In this document: positions 16,342 through 62,886 of the stretch, in pieces | Layout of the letters: every line of letters begins with the position of its first letter | Numbering within the stretch: position 1 is the stretch's first letter | DNA from: Chloroflexota bacterium | GTDB taxonomy: Bacteria > Chloroflexota > UBA11872 > VXOZ01 | NCBI GenBank assembly: GCA_963663275.1 | Contig: OY760183.1 | Location: 1,632,001 to 1,696,000, forward strand | Length of the DNA: 64,000 nucleotides | Direction: 5' to 3' | Program-made: the position numbers and the translations under genes | Notes under the pieces: model-generated | The model's input: the letters and a program-made list of their open reading frames with translations, nothing else | The model's database searches: none | Told to the model about the DNA's origin: nothing

Positions 16342-16716
16342 CTCCTGTCCCCTCTCCCTCTGGGAGAGGGCTAGGGTGAGGGCGAATCATCAGGATACCC
16401 GTAGCGCGGGGGCTTGTCCCCCGCATCTTGGGCAATACGGTCAACACCGTACCGGACAAGGCGCACAATGCCGTTCCAGATGGGTTTGGCGGACACCTGA
16501 AGAAACGCTCTTGTCTCCTTTCCCTCGGCTGACAAGGGTAGGTAATATAATCGGCATACCGTGTCATTCCGAACGGAGCGCAGCGGAGAGAGGAATCTAA
16601 GGCATAGCCTCGGAAGTTCAGCATTCCAGATTCCTCGCTCCGCTCGGAATGACATTTGCATACTCCTGTCCCCTCTCCCATTGGGAGAGGGTTAGGGTGA
16701 GGGCGAATCATCAGGA
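16342..16716. repeat. Composite repeat: two 54-bp direct repeats (CCCTCTCCC/GGGAGAGGG hairpin family) flanking GTAG and GTCATTCC palindromes
   Basis: Direct repeats at 16342-16395 and 16663-16716; GTAGCGCGGGGGCTTGTCCCCCG at 16401; GTCATTCC doublet at 16563-16653. Confidence 0.88.
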
Positions 16717-28322: not shown

Positions 28323-28346
28323 TCCGCTGCCGCACACGTGCGGTGT

Positions 28347-28482
28347 ACGACAAAGGCGTAGGTTCACGACAGAGGTGTAGGGGCACGACAAAGGAGTGGG
28401 TGCCCGATAAAGGTGTAGAGGCACGACAGAGTTGTAGGTACGCGACAAAGGTGTAGGGGCACGACATGTCGTGCCCCTACAC
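28347..28482. repeat. Six degenerate 19-bp tandem units ending in a full GTAG palindrome
   Basis: Consensus ACGACAAAGGTGTAGGGGC x6, then GTGTAGGGGCACGACATGTCGTGCCCCTACAC. Confidence 0.88.
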
Positions 28483-28579
28483 CGGGCGGCAAACCCTTTT
28501 AGGCATCGTTTTCGTAACTGTCCACTCTCCTGCGGCCGCATTGCGCGGCGCGGGTCTCTGCACGGGCGCGCGTTGGGGG

Positions 28580-30325
28580 CTAGGCGATTTCCGTGATGGA
28601 GACGCTATCGAACCAGGCCGTGCCTGTCGTGCCCGGCAGGGCGGAGAGCGCCACCCGGCAGCAGTAGACATAATCCGGCAAGACGGGTGTGGCGACTGCA
28701 AGGCGCGTCCAGTCCTGGCCGGCTGCGCCGCGTTCGCTGCCGCCAACCGGTTCTGAGCGCGCGCGGCCAAGGAAGCCCATGTCGCCGTTCCATTCCAGCG
28801 AGACCGTCATCCCTCCGCCGCGCAGGTCTTTCGTGCGCACCCAGGCTTCGAGCGCGTAGCGTTTGCCGGCGGTGGCCGCGAGCAGTTTGCCGTCGTCATT
28901 CAGCACGCGGCGGATTGCGGGCACGATTGGCTCCGCGCCGTCGCTGTGCCAGCGGATGCTTTCCTGGCTCGTGCGCGCCACCGCCCCGTCGCGGGCGTAC
29001 TGCGGGCGCGGCAGCACCCAGCGCGCCGCGCCTTCTTCCATGCCTGCCACCACCGTGCCATGCGGCGGCAGGTCGGGATACGGCAGTTGCGGGCTGGCGG
29101 CGGACAATTCCGGCAGGGCCGCCGCCGGTTTGCGCAACGTCAGCGTGTCGAAGCAATTGCCGTCGGTGTCGATGGCGCGCACCCGGCATTCGTCCGGCGC
29201 AACCGACGTGAGTAGCAGGTGGTTGACGGGCTTTGCCAACGCCGAAACGGGATGCAGGTGGTCCCAGAGTTCGCTGGGCGCCAGGCTCATGTCGTAGCCG
29301 CCGCCGCCGGAGACGAAGTAGACCACGCCGATTTGGCTGTCGTACTCTCCGCCCCGCAGCGGATGGAAGCGCTCGTAGATGGTGGCGTGGGCGGTGTACA
29401 CGATGTCCACGCCGTAGCGTTCGAACAAGGGGCAGAGCGCGCGGGTGGCCGGTATCTCGCAATTGTTCGAACAGTACGGCGGATGATGGAAGACGACGAA
29501 TTTCCAGCGGGCGTTCTGAAAAGTCTTGAGGTCGTGTTCCAGCCAGTGCCATTGCTCCGAGCCGGGCCGGTAGTCCAAGTTGCTGTTGAGCACGGTGAAG
29601 TGCGCCGCGCCGTAGTTGAAGGAATACCAGTAGTGGGGTTCCGGGTAGTTGAAGTAGCGGAAGTAGCCCTCGTTGGGGGAGTCGTGATTGCCCATGGCGG
29701 CGAACCACGGCGTGTAAGGCAGAAGATTCGACGTGCACGCGAAGAAATCGCTGAAGCGCGCAATCTCGTCCTGGGCGTGGTCGCCGGCCCCGACGCAGAT
29801 GTCCGCCCGGTAGGCGCGGGCAAGGCCGGCGTTGCGGCGGTGGACGTGGTTGACACGCAGGCTGTCGCCGTAGGTGGCGAACGAGAAGGGCGAGTTTGCG
29901 CGAACGGCGGTGCGAAAGCTGGCGGGGGCTGAGGTGACTGTTTCTTTTCCCAACGGTGAATGGGCATGATTTTGGTTGGCAGGAGAGAAGACCCCCTCAC
30001 CCCGGCCCTCTCCCCAGGGAGAGGGAGAGAAAGAGGAAGGGGGAGAGGGGGAAGTCTGCGGGATTGCGGAGCAAGAGGAAACCCGGTAGAAGTAGTCTTG
30101 TTCGGCCTCGAGGCCGGTGATGCGGACGGCGTGGACTGTGCGCGGTTCGGGGTCTTCGCTGCGGCAGGGATAGGTCGGTTCCGGCCGGCCAGCGTAGGCG
30201 CTCCAGCCCAGGCGGGCGCTGCGTTCGTACTCCACGACAGAGGTGGCGGGTTCGTCGGTCTGCCACATGATGGTGATCGCGTCGTGGGCCACGTTTTGCA
30301 GATACGGGCCGGCGGTGATTTTCAT
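28580..30325 (-). CDS. Metallophosphoesterase (purple acid phosphatase-like; FN3 plus catalytic plus C-terminal carbohydrate-binding-like domain) with in-frame repeat insertion
   Basis: GPYLQ..TIMWQTD, YFYRV..SFRTA, YGDS, AGD, GNHD, HHPPY, YER, VSGGGG; ATG 30325 lies 5 nt after the kelch gene stop. Confidence 0.87.
   Translation of the reverse strand: MKITAGPYLQNVAHDAITIMWQTDEPATSVVEYERSARLGWSAYAGRPEPTYPCRSEDPEPRTVHAVRITGLEAEQDYFYRVSSCSAIPQTSPSPPSSFSPSPWGEGRGEGVFSPANQNHAHSPLGKETVTSAPASFRTAVRANSPFSFATYGDSLRVNHVHRRNAGLARAYRADICVGAGDHAQDEIARFSDFFACTSNLLPYTPWFAAMGNHDSPNEGYFRYFNYPEPHYWYSFNYGAAHFTVLNSNLDYRPGSEQWHWLEHDLKTFQNARWKFVVFHHPPYCSNNCEIPATRALCPLFERYGVDIVYTAHATIYERFHPLRGGEYDSQIGVVYFVSGGGGYDMSLAPSELWDHLHPVSALAKPVNHLLLTSVAPDECRVRAIDTDGNCFDTLTLRKPAAALPELSAASPQLPYPDLPPHGTVVAGMEEGAARWVLPRPQYARDGAVARTSQESIRWHSDGAEPIVPAIRRVLNDDGKLLAATAGKRYALEAWVRTKDLRGGGMTVSLEWNGDMGFLGRARSEPVGGSERGAAGQDWTRLAVATPVLPDYVYCCRVALSALPGTTGTAWFDSVSITEIA
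29993..30025. repeat. CCCTCACCC..CCCTCTCCC-nnn-GGGAGAGGG hairpin inside a coding sequence
   Basis: CCCCTCACCCCGGCCCTCTCCCCAGGGAGAGGG, read as SPSPWGEGRGEG on the minus strand. Confidence 0.9.
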
Positions 30326-31469: not shown

Positions 31470-32990
31470 GTGATTATCTACACGGATCACGATGAGGAAC
31501 GCCTCTACCCGGAGGAAGAGAAGATCGCCGACGAGCGGGCGGAGTTCGAACGCGACCGCGCCCGCATCATCCACAGCGCCGCTTTCCGGCGGTTGCAGGG
31601 CAAGACGCAGGTCTTCGGCGTGCGCTACGGCGACTTCTTTCGCACGCGGCTCACGCATTCGCTGGAGGTGGCGCAGATCGGCAAGGCGCTGGCGTTGCGG
31701 TTAGGGGCGGATCCGACCTTGGTCGAGGCGATTTGCCTGGCGCACGACATCGGCCATCCGCCGTTCGGCCACCACGGGGAACAGGCACTGCGGTCGCGCA
31801 TGGCGGCGCTCGGCAATTTCGAGGCGAACGCCCAGAATCTGCGGGTGCTGACGCAGCTTGAGGTGAAGTCGGACCGGTACGCCGGGCTCAATCTGACGCG
31901 GGGGGCGCTGGACGGACTGCTGAAGTATAAGGCGCTGTATGAAATTCCAAGTGGCGCGGGCGCGCTTGGCCAAGCGAACCCTCACCCTAACCCTCTCCCT
32001 CAGGGAGAGGGGATTCGTGGGAACGCGCCCAGCCCTCATCTCGATCCTCTCCCTCAGGGAGAGGGGACAAAGGGAGGGAGCGGGGACGCGCACAGTCGAA
32101 CGACAGGTGAGGATACTCGCCTTGGCTCTCTCCCTCAGGGTGAGGGGATTCAAGGGAACACACTCAATCCTCTTCTTGGTCATCTCTCTGAGAGAGAGGG
32201 GGCTGTTGCAGGGAACGAGATGAAGGCGTGCTACGCCGAGGATGCGCCGTTGCTTGCGTGGATTTGCGAGAGAGGCTCGTTGGAGGAGCGGTCGTTCGAG
32301 TGCCAAATCATGGATTGGGCCGACGACGTGGCGTATTCGGCGCACGATCTGGAAGACGGCATCAACGTGGGCATGATCAGCGTGCAGAACCTGCGGCGTC
32401 CGGCCAACCAGGAGGCGGTCGCGCGGCGCGTGCAGGCGGGCGCGGCGGAGCGGGGGCGCTCGTGGTCGGAGGCGGACGTGGTGCGAGAACTCGACTGGCT
32501 GGCGGCGCGCCTGAGCGAGTTGGAAGGCCTGCCGACGCCGCGCCACGCCCGGGCGGCATTGAAGGACTTGACCTCGCGCCTGATCAACGAATTCGTGCGC
32601 TGCGCTCAAGGCGCGCCCCGGCTGGGTTGGACGGAAGGCCTATCGGAACGCTACCGCTACGGCTTGATGGTGCCCGAAGCGCAGGAACGGCGCTGCGAGG
32701 TGCTGAAGCAGGTGGCGTTTGTGCTGGTGTTCGCGGAGCCGCGCGTGACGACGCTGGCGCATCGCGCGCACCACATGGTGGAGCGGCTGTTCGCGGTATT
32801 CCAGGCGGAGGAGAACGCGGCGATGTATCCCTTTGAGTTTCAAGACCAGTTTACGGGCGCGCGCAACGGCGCGGCGCGCATGAGGGTGGCCTGCGACTAC
32901 ATCGCCTCTATGACGGATTTCCAGGCCGAACGCGCCTACCAGCGCCTTTTCGTGCCCGGTTACGAGAGCATTCTGGATCCGTTAGTGTAG
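31470..32990 (+). CDS. dgt: dNTP triphosphohydrolase (dGTPase, HD domain) with in-frame repeat insertion
   Basis: FERDRARIIHSAAFRRLQGKTQV, RTRLTHSLEVAQI, AHDIGHPPFGH, FEANAQ, ADDVAYSAHDLEDG, DYIASMTD. Confidence 0.95.
   Translation: MIIYTDHDEERLYPEEEKIADERAEFERDRARIIHSAAFRRLQGKTQVFGVRYGDFFRTRLTHSLEVAQIGKALALRLGADPTLVEAICLAHDIGHPPFGHHGEQALRSRMAALGNFEANAQNLRVLTQLEVKSDRYAGLNLTRGALDGLLKYKALYEIPSGAGALGQANPHPNPLPQGEGIRGNAPSPHLDPLPQGEGTKGGSGDAHSRTTGEDTRLGSLPQGEGIQGNTLNPLLGHLSEREGAVAGNEMKACYAEDAPLLAWICERGSLEERSFECQIMDWADDVAYSAHDLEDGINVGMISVQNLRRPANQEAVARRVQAGAAERGRSWSEADVVRELDWLAARLSELEGLPTPRHARAALKDLTSRLINEFVRCAQGAPRLGWTEGLSERYRYGLMVPEAQERRCEVLKQVAFVLVFAEPRVTTLAHRAHHMVERLFAVFQAEENAAMYPFEFQDQFTGARNGAARMRVACDYIASMTDFQAERAYQRLFVPGYESILDPLV
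31979..32202. repeat. Four CCCTCTCCC/GGGAGAGGG hairpin copies inside dgt
   Basis: Copies at 31979-32012, 32033-32066, ~32116-32147 and ~32168-32202, encoding PHPNPLPQGEG, PHLDPLPQGEG, RLGSLPQGEG, LGHLSEREG. Confidence 0.9.
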
Positions 32991-33048: not shown

Positions 33049-33202
33049 CGTCAGGTGTAGGGGCACGACATGTCGTGCCCCTACACCTGACGTCCGGCCC
33101 CTTTACAACGTTGTTGAATTGCGTAGGGGCGGTTCGCGAACCGTCCCCACGGCGCACGGTGAATCACAATCCCGGTAGGGGCGGTTCGCGAACCGCCCCT
33201 AC
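33049..33202. repeat. GTAG-type palindromes between convergent genes
   Basis: 44-bp perfect palindrome 33049-33092; GTAGGGGCGGTTCGCGAACCGCCCCTAC-type copies at 33123 and 33175. Confidence 0.9.
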
Positions 33203-34610: not shown

Positions 34611-34769
34611 TGCGAATTCCCCCTCACCCTAACCCTCTCCCCCGGGGAGAGGGGATGAAGGCTGCTTTCTTTGCGAGTTTCCCCTCACCCTAGCCCTCTC
34701 CCCGGGGAGAGGGAATGGAAACCGTCGCCTTTGGGAGTTCCCCCTCACCCTAACCCTCTCCCTCGGGAG
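34611..34769. repeat. Three tandem ~60-bp units of the CCCTCACCCTAACCCTCTCCC hairpin; third copy interrupted
   Basis: Units at ~34620, 34681, 34741; the missing right arm of the third copy (AGGGAGAGGGG) is at 35947-35957. Confidence 0.88.
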
Positions 34770-44913: not shown

Positions 44914-44948
44914 CCCCTCACCCTAACCCTCTCCCACGGGGAGAGGGG
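44914..44948. repeat. CCCTCACCCTAACCCTCTCCC hairpin immediately upstream of the efp RBS
   Basis: CCCCTCACCCTAACCCTCTCCCACGGGGAGAGGGG. Confidence 0.88.
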
Positions 44949-62776: not shown

Positions 62777-62886
62777 CCCCTCACCCTAGCCCTCTCCCCA
62801 GGGAGAGGGAATAGGACGTGGCCGTATTTCCCTCCCCAGGGAGAGGGAACAAGACGCGGCTGCGATTCCAGTGCCAGGGAGAGGGA
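62777..62886. repeat. CCCTCTCCC/GGGAGAGGG hairpin with two degenerate downstream copies
   Basis: CCCCTCACCCTAGCCCTCTCCCCAGGGAGAGGGAA, then CCAGGGAGAGGGAAC twice. Confidence 0.82.

What the first reader, a model, noticed from the sequence alone, without database searches (positions are those of the whole stretch)
29948..30073. Second in-frame insertion of the same hairpin, opposite orientation, in the metallophosphoesterase FN3 domain
Seen: about 42 extra codons between YFYRVSS and ETVTSAPASFRTA contain the same hairpin, read on the other strand as SPSPWGEGRGEG. Two neighbouring genes thus carry it in both orientations without frameshift. Inference: coding-region insertion is recurrent in this genome, and the element is stop-free in the frames used.
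Basis: partly seen in the sequence, partly recalled or inferred. Interest (0 to 1): 0.7.

Follow-up and report, generated by a model that had tools for sequence, protein, structure and literature searches.

The report
BoxC-type DNA repeat translated inside phosphoesterase
A short GC-rich DNA repeat known from between the genes of E. coli sits in frame inside a phosphatase-like gene of this Chloroflexota bacterium and is read as a floppy surface loop, which is a real but already familiar kind of event.

Summary
The metallophosphoesterase gene (window 28580-30325, minus strand) carries a net 38-codon in-frame insert between beta-strands of its N-terminal domain. The insert is absent from 11 of 15 same-genus orthologs and 18 of 25 aligned database homologs.

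Only 36 nt of the insert (29992-30027) are repeated DNA. That core is a copy of the BoxC / PIT / "intrastrand triplex motif" (TM) repeat, type B, described in E. coli (Holder 2015, PMC4666352).

This 3.53-Mb genome holds 332 copies. About 95% are intergenic, and 12 lie in frame in 9 Pfam-confirmed genes, including the neighbouring HD-phosphohydrolase gene. So coding insertion is recurrent but rare.

The insert is predicted to be disordered. The core is nucleotide-identical in all four species that carry the insert, while its flanks diverged and expanded by tandem duplication. Those four species are not a clade (AU p = 0.0005; an unlinked UvrA tree gives the same sister pairs). This points to recombination or repeated loss.

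No transposase link was found. The one RAYT-like gene is flanked by a different REP, and there is no DUF559 gene.

This is a new member of a known kind, like Rickettsia palindromic elements and intragenic REPs. The scan has noted BoxC-type in-frame inserts before on other DNA.

The parts
28580..30325 (-). Host gene: 581-aa metallophosphoesterase with a purple-acid-phosphatase-like N-terminal domain. The reading frame is intact.
   Evidence: ORF. Pfam Pur_ac_phosph_N (residues 10-87) and Metallophos (169-313). 159 homologs with E <= 0.001, most of the close ones (50% identity or more) 534-545 aa.
29960..30073 (-). In-frame insert of net 38 codons (residues about 85-122; boundaries uncertain by about 3 codons) between strands 77-86 and 129-138 of the N-terminal domain.
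   Evidence: Alignment A1. YRV-to-FRT distance 57 against 19 residues. Coordinates. Residues 90-126 have pLDDT below 50 and are coil in the AlphaFold2 model.
29992..30027 (-). BoxC / TM repeat core, type B. The G-rich strand is the gene's sense strand, read as PSPWGEGRGEG (29993-30025).
   Evidence: 36 of 36 nt identical to at least 8 other genomic copies. Nucleotide-identical in the orthologs of G008, G009 and G001. About 89% identical over 43-46 nt to copies in 4540 of 5426 E. coli genomes. Matches Table 1 of PMC4666352.
30006..30025 (.). Hairpin proper: CCCTCTCCC, loop CA, GGGAGAGGG.
   Evidence: Sequence. Predicted fold -8 kcal/mol on the + strand.
29992..30005 (.). Third block (CCCCCTCACCC, complement of GGGTGAGGGGG) plus the CGG/CCG linker that defines type B.
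   Evidence: Sequence. Linker counts in the genome: CGG-type 147, TAA-type 142, other 43 of 332.
31470..32990 (+). Neighbouring HD-domain phosphohydrolase gene carrying a net 87-codon in-frame array of four TM-like hairpins. The C-rich strand is the sense strand, read as PHPNPLPQGEG and variants.
   Evidence: Pfam HD and HD_assoc. Hairpins at 31991-32011, 32045-32065 and 32126-32146. Congeners are 419 aa and lack the array.
28718..28738 (-). A second, small insert in the same gene: about 6 extra codons (SERGAAG region) absent from all 24 other aligned homologs. It is not a hairpin copy.
   Evidence: Alignment A1, columns 601-699. Coordinates.

Best explanation
The feature is an intragenic, translated copy of the BoxC / PIT / TM repeat. 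This is a 33-37-nt GC-rich element made of a CCCTCTCCC/GGGAGAGGG hairpin plus a third block, GGGTGAGGG, joined by CCG (type B) or TTA (type A).

The family has amplified to about 330 copies in this Chloroflexota genome. It is almost entirely intergenic because insertions into genes are normally purged.

In this gene a repeat-bearing segment landed in a surface loop of the N-terminal beta-sandwich domain. It is read in a stop-free frame that gives a Pro/Ser/Gly/Glu-rich, disordered peptide, so the enzyme tolerates it (inferred).

The segment then evolved like repeat DNA, not like protein. Its flanks diverged and expanded by tandem duplication of the left hairpin arm. The 35-nt core stayed identical in four species, most likely through gene conversion from the many other copies or through constraint on the DNA/RNA structure (inferred).

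Its patchy distribution across species is best explained by short-tract homologous recombination that moved or removed the insert allele (inferred). How new copies are made is not known.
For: Identity of the element:
- The three blocks and the CCG linker are in the sequence.
- 332 oriented copies occur genome-wide, in two linker types.
- 39 of 43 close inverted pairs combine type A with type B, mostly 93-94 nt apart, as reported for E. coli (PMC4666352 section 18).
- Copies about 89% identical occur in 4540 of 5426 E. coli genomes.

It is an insertion:
- 11 of 15 congeners and 18 of 25 aligned homologs have the short loop.

It is tolerated:
- The frame is open.
- Many columns elsewhere in the protein are invariant across the 25 homologs.
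- Residues 90-126 have pLDDT below 50 and are coil, between two strands.

Gene insertions are purged:
- 12 of 332 copies lie in genes that cover 79% of the DNA.

Frame choice:
- All 5 G-rich-sense type-B copies, in 5 genes, use the PSPxGEGRGEG frame. None uses the other open frame.

Core maintenance:
- The longest invariant run among the four insert-bearing orthologs is 35 nt, at the core. The next longest is 20 nt.
- 67.6% of other columns and 37.7% of third positions are invariant.

History:
- The insert-bearing rows are not a clade (AU p = 0.00048).
- An unlinked UvrA tree gives the same sister pairs: G000+G011, G001+G016, G008+G009.
- Next to the insert, G001 is closer to G008/G009 (0.81-0.88 identity) than to its sister G016 (0.67-0.80). 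Elsewhere the reverse holds.
Against: - No RNA or protein data show that the insert is translated. No RNA run was listed for this stretch.
- The structure model is of modest quality (mean pLDDT 69.3).
- The simple hairpin does not fold better than shuffled sequence (z -0.8 and -1.2). Structure-based selection is therefore not shown.
- Gene calls are my own crude ones (79% coding), so intergenic and coding counts are approximate.
- The recombination signal rests on 90-nt windows without a formal test.
- Only 36 of about 114 inserted nt are recognisable repeat, so what exactly was inserted is unknown.
- The frame-bias sample is small (5 and 3 genes).
- Perfect core identity across species could equally mean recent independent re-insertion.
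Confidence: 0.82

Rival explanations
1. Independent hits at a hot spot. Three lineages (G000; G001; G008+G009) each acquired a TM-bearing segment separately at the same codon, because the site is a preferred target.
For: Both the gene tree and the UvrA tree force at least 2-3 changes. The 5' part of the G000 insert (CSAIPQTSPSPPSSFS) does not align with the FPEDPCETQ... of the others. The core is identical to the genomic consensus in all four, as fresh copies would be. UvrA in this genus shows two regions hit in most species.
Against: The non-repeat 3' flank is alignable in all four (VFSPANQNHAHSP / VSSPAGREYANRSP / LSAPADPAYAGLSP). The 5' flank of G001 is homologous to that of G008/G009. These flanks are not repeated elsewhere in the genome. 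DNA flanking the insert in G001 resembles G008/G009, as expected for an allele transferred by recombination.
Confidence: 0.12
2. Exaptation. The insert, or its DNA/RNA structure (hairpin, triplex or G-quadruplex on the G-rich sense strand), is kept because it does something useful, for example a translational pause between domains or a new interaction loop.
For: The core is invariant at all 35 nt, silent sites included, in four species. The insert persists in lineages about 15-20% diverged. In vitro triplex formation and a competing G-quadruplex reading are reported for this motif (PMC4666352, passages; PMC5100583, passages).
Against: 11 of 15 congeners do without it. One database homolog (P0007) keeps the insert but has lost the core. 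Insert length varies from 38 to about 126 net codons. It is predicted to be disordered. In the passages I read of PMC4666352, the earlier studies cited there found no promoter or terminator activity for these elements.
Confidence: 0.08
3. The gene is a decaying pseudogene or the insert is an assembly artefact, so nothing is translated.
For: Repeats are prone to misassembly. No expression data were available.
Against: The 581-codon frame is open. Conserved columns are kept throughout. Four independent genome assemblies and 6 further database proteins carry an in-frame insert at the same codon.
Confidence: 0.02
4. The loop is an ordinary host low-complexity linker and its likeness to the repeat is chance.
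For: The region is rich in Pro, Ser and Gly.
Against: 36 of 36 nt are identical to at least 8 other loci and about 250-320 matches cover the core. Shuffles gave 0 matches.
Confidence: 0.01

Closest known systems
BoxC / PIT elements / TM_ECO intrastrand triplex motifs of E. coli and more than 260 other genomes (Holder et al. 2015, NAR 43:10126, PMC4666352; abstract, Table 1, sections 15 and 18 and found passages read)
   Same: Same three-block sequence. Same two loop types (TTA = A, CCG = B). Same inverted A+B pairing. Multi-copy and dispersed. No linked mobility gene. Associated with local rearrangement.
   Different: In E. coli K-12 the 23 copies are reported as always intergenic. Here there are about 330 copies in 3.5 Mb, and 12 are translated inside 9 genes. 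There are also array forms with tandem half-units.
Rickettsia palindromic elements (Ogata et al. 2000, 2002; cited from the review PMC10969869, passages read; original papers not read)
   Same: Palindromic repeats inserted in frame in unrelated housekeeping genes, read through, and placed where the fold tolerates them.
   Different: RPEs are about 100-150 bp and specific to Rickettsia. Nearly half of the RPE copies sit in genes, against 3.6% here. No sequence relationship is apparent: the RPEs are lineage-specific, while this core matches E. coli BoxC.
Intragenic GTAG/CGTC REPs (Di Nocera et al. 2013, PMC3733652; abstract and passages read)
   Same: Short palindromic repeats, mostly intergenic and downstream of genes, with a minority inside genes. 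Those often sit in uvrA and other repair genes and encode 20-80 residues. UvrA is a host here too.
   Different: This element has no GTAG or CGTC tag. The single RAYT-like gene of this genome is flanked by another REP family.
G-quadruplex-hairpin-duplex switch motifs HPG1/HPG2 of E. coli (Kaplan et al. 2016, PMC5100583; passages read)
   Same: The motif string is found in that paper. My inference from the group sizes (16 and 7, 23 in all) and the shared string is that these are the same E. coli repeats, read there as G-quadruplex formers. The G-rich strand here has four G3 tracts.
   Different: Described there as intergenic only. No structural test was made here.

Membership tests
BoxC / PIT / TM_ECO repeat | Three roughly 9-nt blocks, pyrimidine-purine-purine (CCCTCTCCC, GGGAGAGGG, GGGTGAGGG), with loops of 1-6 nt | tested here: met
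   Sense strand reads CCCTCTCCC-TG-GGGAGAGGG-CCG-GGGTGAGGG. Compare Table 1 of PMC4666352.
BoxC / PIT / TM_ECO repeat | Second loop TTA (type A) or CCG (type B) | tested here: met
   The focal copy is type B. Genome-wide: 147 B, 142 A, 43 other of 332.
BoxC / PIT / TM_ECO repeat | Close inverted pairs combine one type A with one type B | tested here: met
   39 of 43 inverted (-+) pairs within 200 nt are A+B. 30 units share a conserved roughly 60-nt spacer.
BoxC / PIT / TM_ECO repeat | Sequence likeness to the E. coli copies | tested here: met
   blastn: 4540 of 5426 E. coli genomes matched, median 7 places per genome. The 8 best-ranked records listed are each 89.1% identical over 43-46 nt.
BoxC / PIT / TM_ECO repeat | Intergenic location (reported as 'always' in E. 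coli K-12) | tested here: not met
   This copy and 11 others are inside genes. 315 of 332 are intergenic. Location describes the E. coli copies and is not part of the motif definition.
BoxC / PIT / TM_ECO repeat | Forms an intrastrand triplex in vitro | not testable with these tools
   Needs CD or NMR. Only a hairpin fold was computed.
REP with RAYT transposase (REPtron) | GTAG or CGTC tag at one end, and a Y1 transposase gene flanked by the same repeat | tested here: not met
   The element has no tag. The one PF01797 hit in the genome (43.7 bits) is flanked by a different GTAG REP.
MITE | Terminal inverted repeats and a target-site duplication | tested here: inconclusive
   The solo core has no terminal inverted repeats. 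The junctions TTCCCCG and TCTCCCG in G008 share 5 of 7 nt, too weak to call. The 30 composite A-spacer-B units do look MITE-like.
Rickettsia palindromic elements | Roughly 100-150-bp families specific to Rickettsia, each with a conserved peptide | not tested
   No RPE sequence was compared here. By what is described of them this 36-nt core differs in size, and it matches E. coli BoxC instead. It works like an RPE but I do not file it as one.
   The only PF04480 match in the genome scores 17.6 bits, below the cut-off of 20.6, and lies inside a 549-aa frame.
Rfam whalefall-1 RNA (RF01762) | Score at or above the gathering threshold (37 bits) | tested here: not met
   20.1 bits at 29993-30027, 18.2 at 31978-32013 and 24.0 at 34681-34715.
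Metallophosphoesterase with purple-acid-phosphatase N-domain (host protein) | Pfam Metallophos and Pur_ac_phosph_N above their cut-offs | tested here: met
   45.8 bits (cut-off 21.5) and 37.7 bits (cut-off 30).

The most novel reading that the evidence does not exclude
Inside genes, the BoxC/TM core is actively kept at its consensus sequence, by gene conversion from the hundreds of other copies or by an unknown enzyme that recognises it. Insert-bearing alleles pass between species by short-tract recombination. The repeat would then be a renewable seed of new disordered protein loops, which grow by tandem duplication of a hairpin arm (PSxPSLSGA units in G008/G009) and later decay into ordinary sequence, as in the adenosyltransferase loop.
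Probability: 0.25. Interest if true: 0.6.

Novelty: new member of a known kind. Interest (0 to 1): 0.38.

Why it matters
BoxC/TM repeats are among the most widespread bacterial repeats, and their origin and mode of spread remain unexplained. In the passages I read they are described as intergenic.

This genus offers a natural experiment:
- copy number runs from 3 to 268 among 17 related genomes;
- filled and empty sites exist in the same genes;
- a coding copy keeps a perfectly conserved core while everything around it changes.

That makes two questions testable. One is which gene content tracks repeat amplification. The other is whether such repeats feed new loop sequence into enzymes. For annotation, the practical lesson is that PSPxGEGRGEG and PHPNPLPxGEG peptides mark repeat-derived segments.

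Tried and rejected
- RAYT link. The single Y1_Tnp gene is flanked by another REP family. Rejected.
No gene above the cut-off. Rejected for this genome.
- Rfam. Only sub-threshold whalefall-1 matches and chance miRNA and frameshift-element matches.
- Hairpin stability against shuffles. Not exceptional, so thermodynamics alone says nothing here.
- Search for longer homology between the insert flanks and other repeat copies. Alignments extend beyond the core only through low-complexity CT-rich tracts and array-type half-units. The 30 composite A-spacer-B units share no flank with the insert.
- My first GC3 filter for coding copies missed the HD gene. I replaced it with a codon-usage gene caller.
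- Expression. No RNA holder was listed for this stretch.
- Literature. I found no paper describing BoxC/TM copies inside genes in three searches. This is a limited search, and the supplementary tables of PMC4666352 and PMC3733652 were not opened.
- I first took the insert as 45 codons from the length difference (581 against 536 aa). Seven of those lie elsewhere in the protein, about 6 of them in a separate C-terminal insert, so the net figure is 38.

Full report
**1. The observation**

The window lies in a single-contig genome of 3,531,182 bases with 64.3% G+C. One source names a close homolog of the host protein as coming from a Chloroflexota MAG.

On the minus strand, 28580-30325 encodes a 581-residue protein with Pfam Pur_ac_phosph_N (residues 10-87) and Metallophos (169-313). 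It includes PSPWGEGRGEG at 29993-30025. The hairpin CCCTCTCCC-CA-GGGAGAGGG is at 30006-30025.

**2. It is an insertion**

Among the 25 aligned homologs, 18 read YFYRVSS(S)-SPGGxxVxSxxASFRTA with no extra residues. Seven have extra residues at exactly this point: the query, P0003-P0007 and P0011.

Among the 16 other genomes of the same genus, 14 hold a full ortholog. One has no ortholog (best E 9.7e-5) and one has only a C-terminal piece. Of the 15 orthologs including the window's, 4 carry an insert (G000, G008, G009, G001) and 11 do not.

The net gain in the window is 38 codons: the YRV-to-FRT distance is 57 residues against 19. The other 7 residues of the 581-versus-536 length difference lie elsewhere in the protein, about 6 of them in a separate small insert near residue 530.

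**3. What is repeated**

Only 36 nt (29992-30027) recur in the genome. There are about 250-320 matches, and at least 8 are identical at 36 of 36 nt. The other roughly 78 inserted nt are unique.

A pattern allowing one substitution per block finds 332 oriented copies, 163 on one strand and 169 on the other. They fall into two linker types: CGG 147, TAA 142, other 43.

**4. What the repeat is**

A full-text search with the motif strings led to Holder et al. 2015 (PMC4666352). Its Table 1 lists the 23 "TM_ECO" copies of E. coli K-12, such as CCCTCTCCCTGTGGGAGAGGGCCGGGGTGAGGGC. These are the BoxC / PIT elements. They come in type A (TTA loop) and type B (CCG loop). Type A always pairs with type B in inverted pairs, and the copies are reported as always intergenic and without linked mobility genes.

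The focal copy is type B. In this genome 39 of 43 close inverted pairs are A+B, mostly 93-94 nt apart. Thirty such pairs share a conserved spacer of about 60 nt.

blastn finds copies in 4540 of 5426 complete E. coli genomes; the 8 best-ranked records listed are each 89.1% identical to the focal copy over 43-46 nt. Those stretches came from Planctomycetota, Pseudomonas, Acinetobacter, Akkermansia, Dehalococcoidia, Anaerolineae, cyanobacteria, Myxococcota, Nitrospiria, Elusimicrobiota and others.

Among 41 related genomes, 30 hold exact copies. This genome has the most (268). Its congeners have 3 to 182.

**5. Where copies sit**

I made crude gene calls with a codon-usage caller: 2754 genes covering 78.9% of the DNA, and it reproduces the genes of the window. 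On those calls:
- 315 copies are intergenic;
- 5 touch a gene edge;
- 12 lie inside 9 genes.

Density in tandem and convergent spacers is about twice that in divergent ones: 0.49 and 0.48 against 0.23 per kb. Di Nocera et al. describe the same pattern for REPs (PMC3733652).

The host genes are real:
- an NAD-dependent epimerase;
- UvrA, with three copies between the UvrA_inter and UvrA_DNA-bind domains;
- two Eco57I/MmeI-like methyltransferase genes;
- MoeA, with two copies inside MoCF_biosynth;
- a cobalamin adenosyltransferase;
- a LytR_cpsA_psr protein;
- the HD phosphohydrolase next door;
- this gene.

Peptide searches agree. PHPxPLPxGEG gives 5 matches in predicted genes out of 108 six-frame matches. 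PSPxGxGxGEG gives 5 out of 135.

In the HD gene, all 14 congeners that have the gene lack query residues about 159-249. The 6 congeners I translated are 419 aa against 506 aa. The extra 87 codons hold four tandem TM-like hairpins. That insert is specific to this genome.

In the adenosyltransferase, 5 congeners have a short loop. Four genomes have a recognisable repeat-derived loop. Seven have a loop of like length without a recognisable repeat.

UvrA frames in the genus run from 1063 to 1494 residues (the partial G014 frame apart). The matches break at two regions, about residues 245-304 and 690-782.

**6. Frames**

This part is my own reading of the sequence. Type B has a stop in one of six frames and type A in three of six.

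All five G-rich-sense type-B copies, in five genes, use the frame giving PSPxGEGRGEG. None uses the other open frame, LPLPGERAGVRG. The C-rich-sense type-A copies, in three genes, use PHPNPLP and not LTLTLS.

The sample is small. The direction fits selection for hydrophilic, flexible peptides.

**7. Tolerance**

The AlphaFold2 model has mean pLDDT 69.3 and pTM 0.75. It places residues 90-126 in coil with pLDDT below 50, between strands 77-86 and 129-138. Many columns elsewhere in the protein are invariant across the 25 homologs.

**8. History**

The four insert-bearing orthologs share an identical core of 35 nt. This is the longest invariant run in the whole gene; the next longest is 20 nt. 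Elsewhere 67.6% of columns and 37.7% of third positions are invariant.

The flanks differ. G008 and G009 carry 2 and about 10 tandem 27-nt units derived from the left hairpin arm. Intergenic copies in this genome show the same array habit. One database homolog (P0007) keeps the insert but lacks the core.

A tree of the protein without the loop does not unite the four rows. The AU test rejects their union (lnL difference 43.7, p = 0.00048). A tree from UvrA, about 500 kb away, gives the same sister pairs: G000+G011 (95/98), G001+G016 (95/91) and G008+G009 (99/99). It forces three changes.

The non-repeat flanks of the inserts are homologous between lineages. In 90-nt windows next to the insert, G001 resembles G008/G009 (0.81-0.88 identity) more than it resembles its sister G016 (0.67-0.80). 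Further along the gene it is the reverse.

I read this as one origin followed by short-tract recombination, either transfer of the insert allele or its replacement by an insert-free allele. This is inference, and no formal breakpoint test was run.

**9. Mechanism of spread**

This remains open. The only Y1-transposase-like gene is flanked by a different GTAG-type REP. There is no DUF559 gene above the cut-off. Rfam offers only sub-threshold whalefall-1 matches. The published work found no linked mobility genes either.

**10. Verdict**

The element is a known repeat family, and in-frame palindromic inserts are a known phenomenon:
- RPEs, via the review PMC10969869;
- intragenic REPs, PMC3733652.

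Earlier notes of this scan describe BoxC-type in-frame inserts in other genomes. I reached the BoxC identification independently.

What this case adds:
- the scale of amplification (332 copies here);
- the perfectly conserved core inside a coding sequence;
- the patchy distribution across species, which suggests recombination.

Noticed in passing
window 28342-28488 and 33049-33092: Another repeat family: the GTAG-type palindrome GGTGTAGGGGCACGACATGTCGTGCCCCTACACC, preceded at 28342-28474 by five 19-nt tandem units. It lies in the spacers flanking the gene block.
   Followed up: no
window 33123-33202: Two copies of a third palindrome, GTAGGGGCGGTTCGCGAACCGCCCCTAC, 52 nt apart.
   Followed up: no
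G000:C1:383050-383358 (L021): The single RAYT-like Y1 transposase gene is flanked on both sides by tandem copies of a GTAGCGCGGGGGCTCGTCCCCCGC-type REP. This looks like a classical REPtron for a family other than the focal one.
   Followed up: partly
genome-wide, e.g. G000:C1:110654-110777: Thirty composite units: type-A copy (reverse), a conserved roughly 60-nt spacer, then a type-B copy (forward). They are about 125-130 nt long and MITE-like.
   Followed up: partly
G000:C1:1162614-1165985 (L023) and congeners L186-L214: UvrA is decorated across the whole genus. Open frames run from 1063 to 1494 aa (the partial G014 frame apart), with two variable regions at about residues 245-304 and 690-782. 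A second, more distant UvrA-like gene lies at C1:3465547-3468456.
   Followed up: partly
G000:C1:3253945-3254580 (L027) and L170-L185: The cobalamin adenosyltransferase loop occurs in three states in the genus: short (5 genomes), repeat-derived (4) and long without a recognisable repeat (7). This suggests that repeat-derived loops decay into ordinary sequence.
   Followed up: partly
window 28718-28738: About six extra codons (SERGAAG region) in the C-terminal domain of the phosphoesterase, absent from all 24 other aligned homologs. Not a hairpin copy.
   Followed up: no
window 29993-30027, 31978-32013, 34681-34715: Sub-threshold Rfam matches (18-24 bits; gathering score 37) of the repeat to the metagenome-derived whalefall-1 RNA motif. 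That motif may itself be a relative of this repeat.
   Followed up: no
window 16351-16381, 16672-16702, 34622-34652, 34683-34712, 44916-44946, 62779-62808: Six further copies of the repeat in the window. I did not check each against the gene calls.
   Followed up: no
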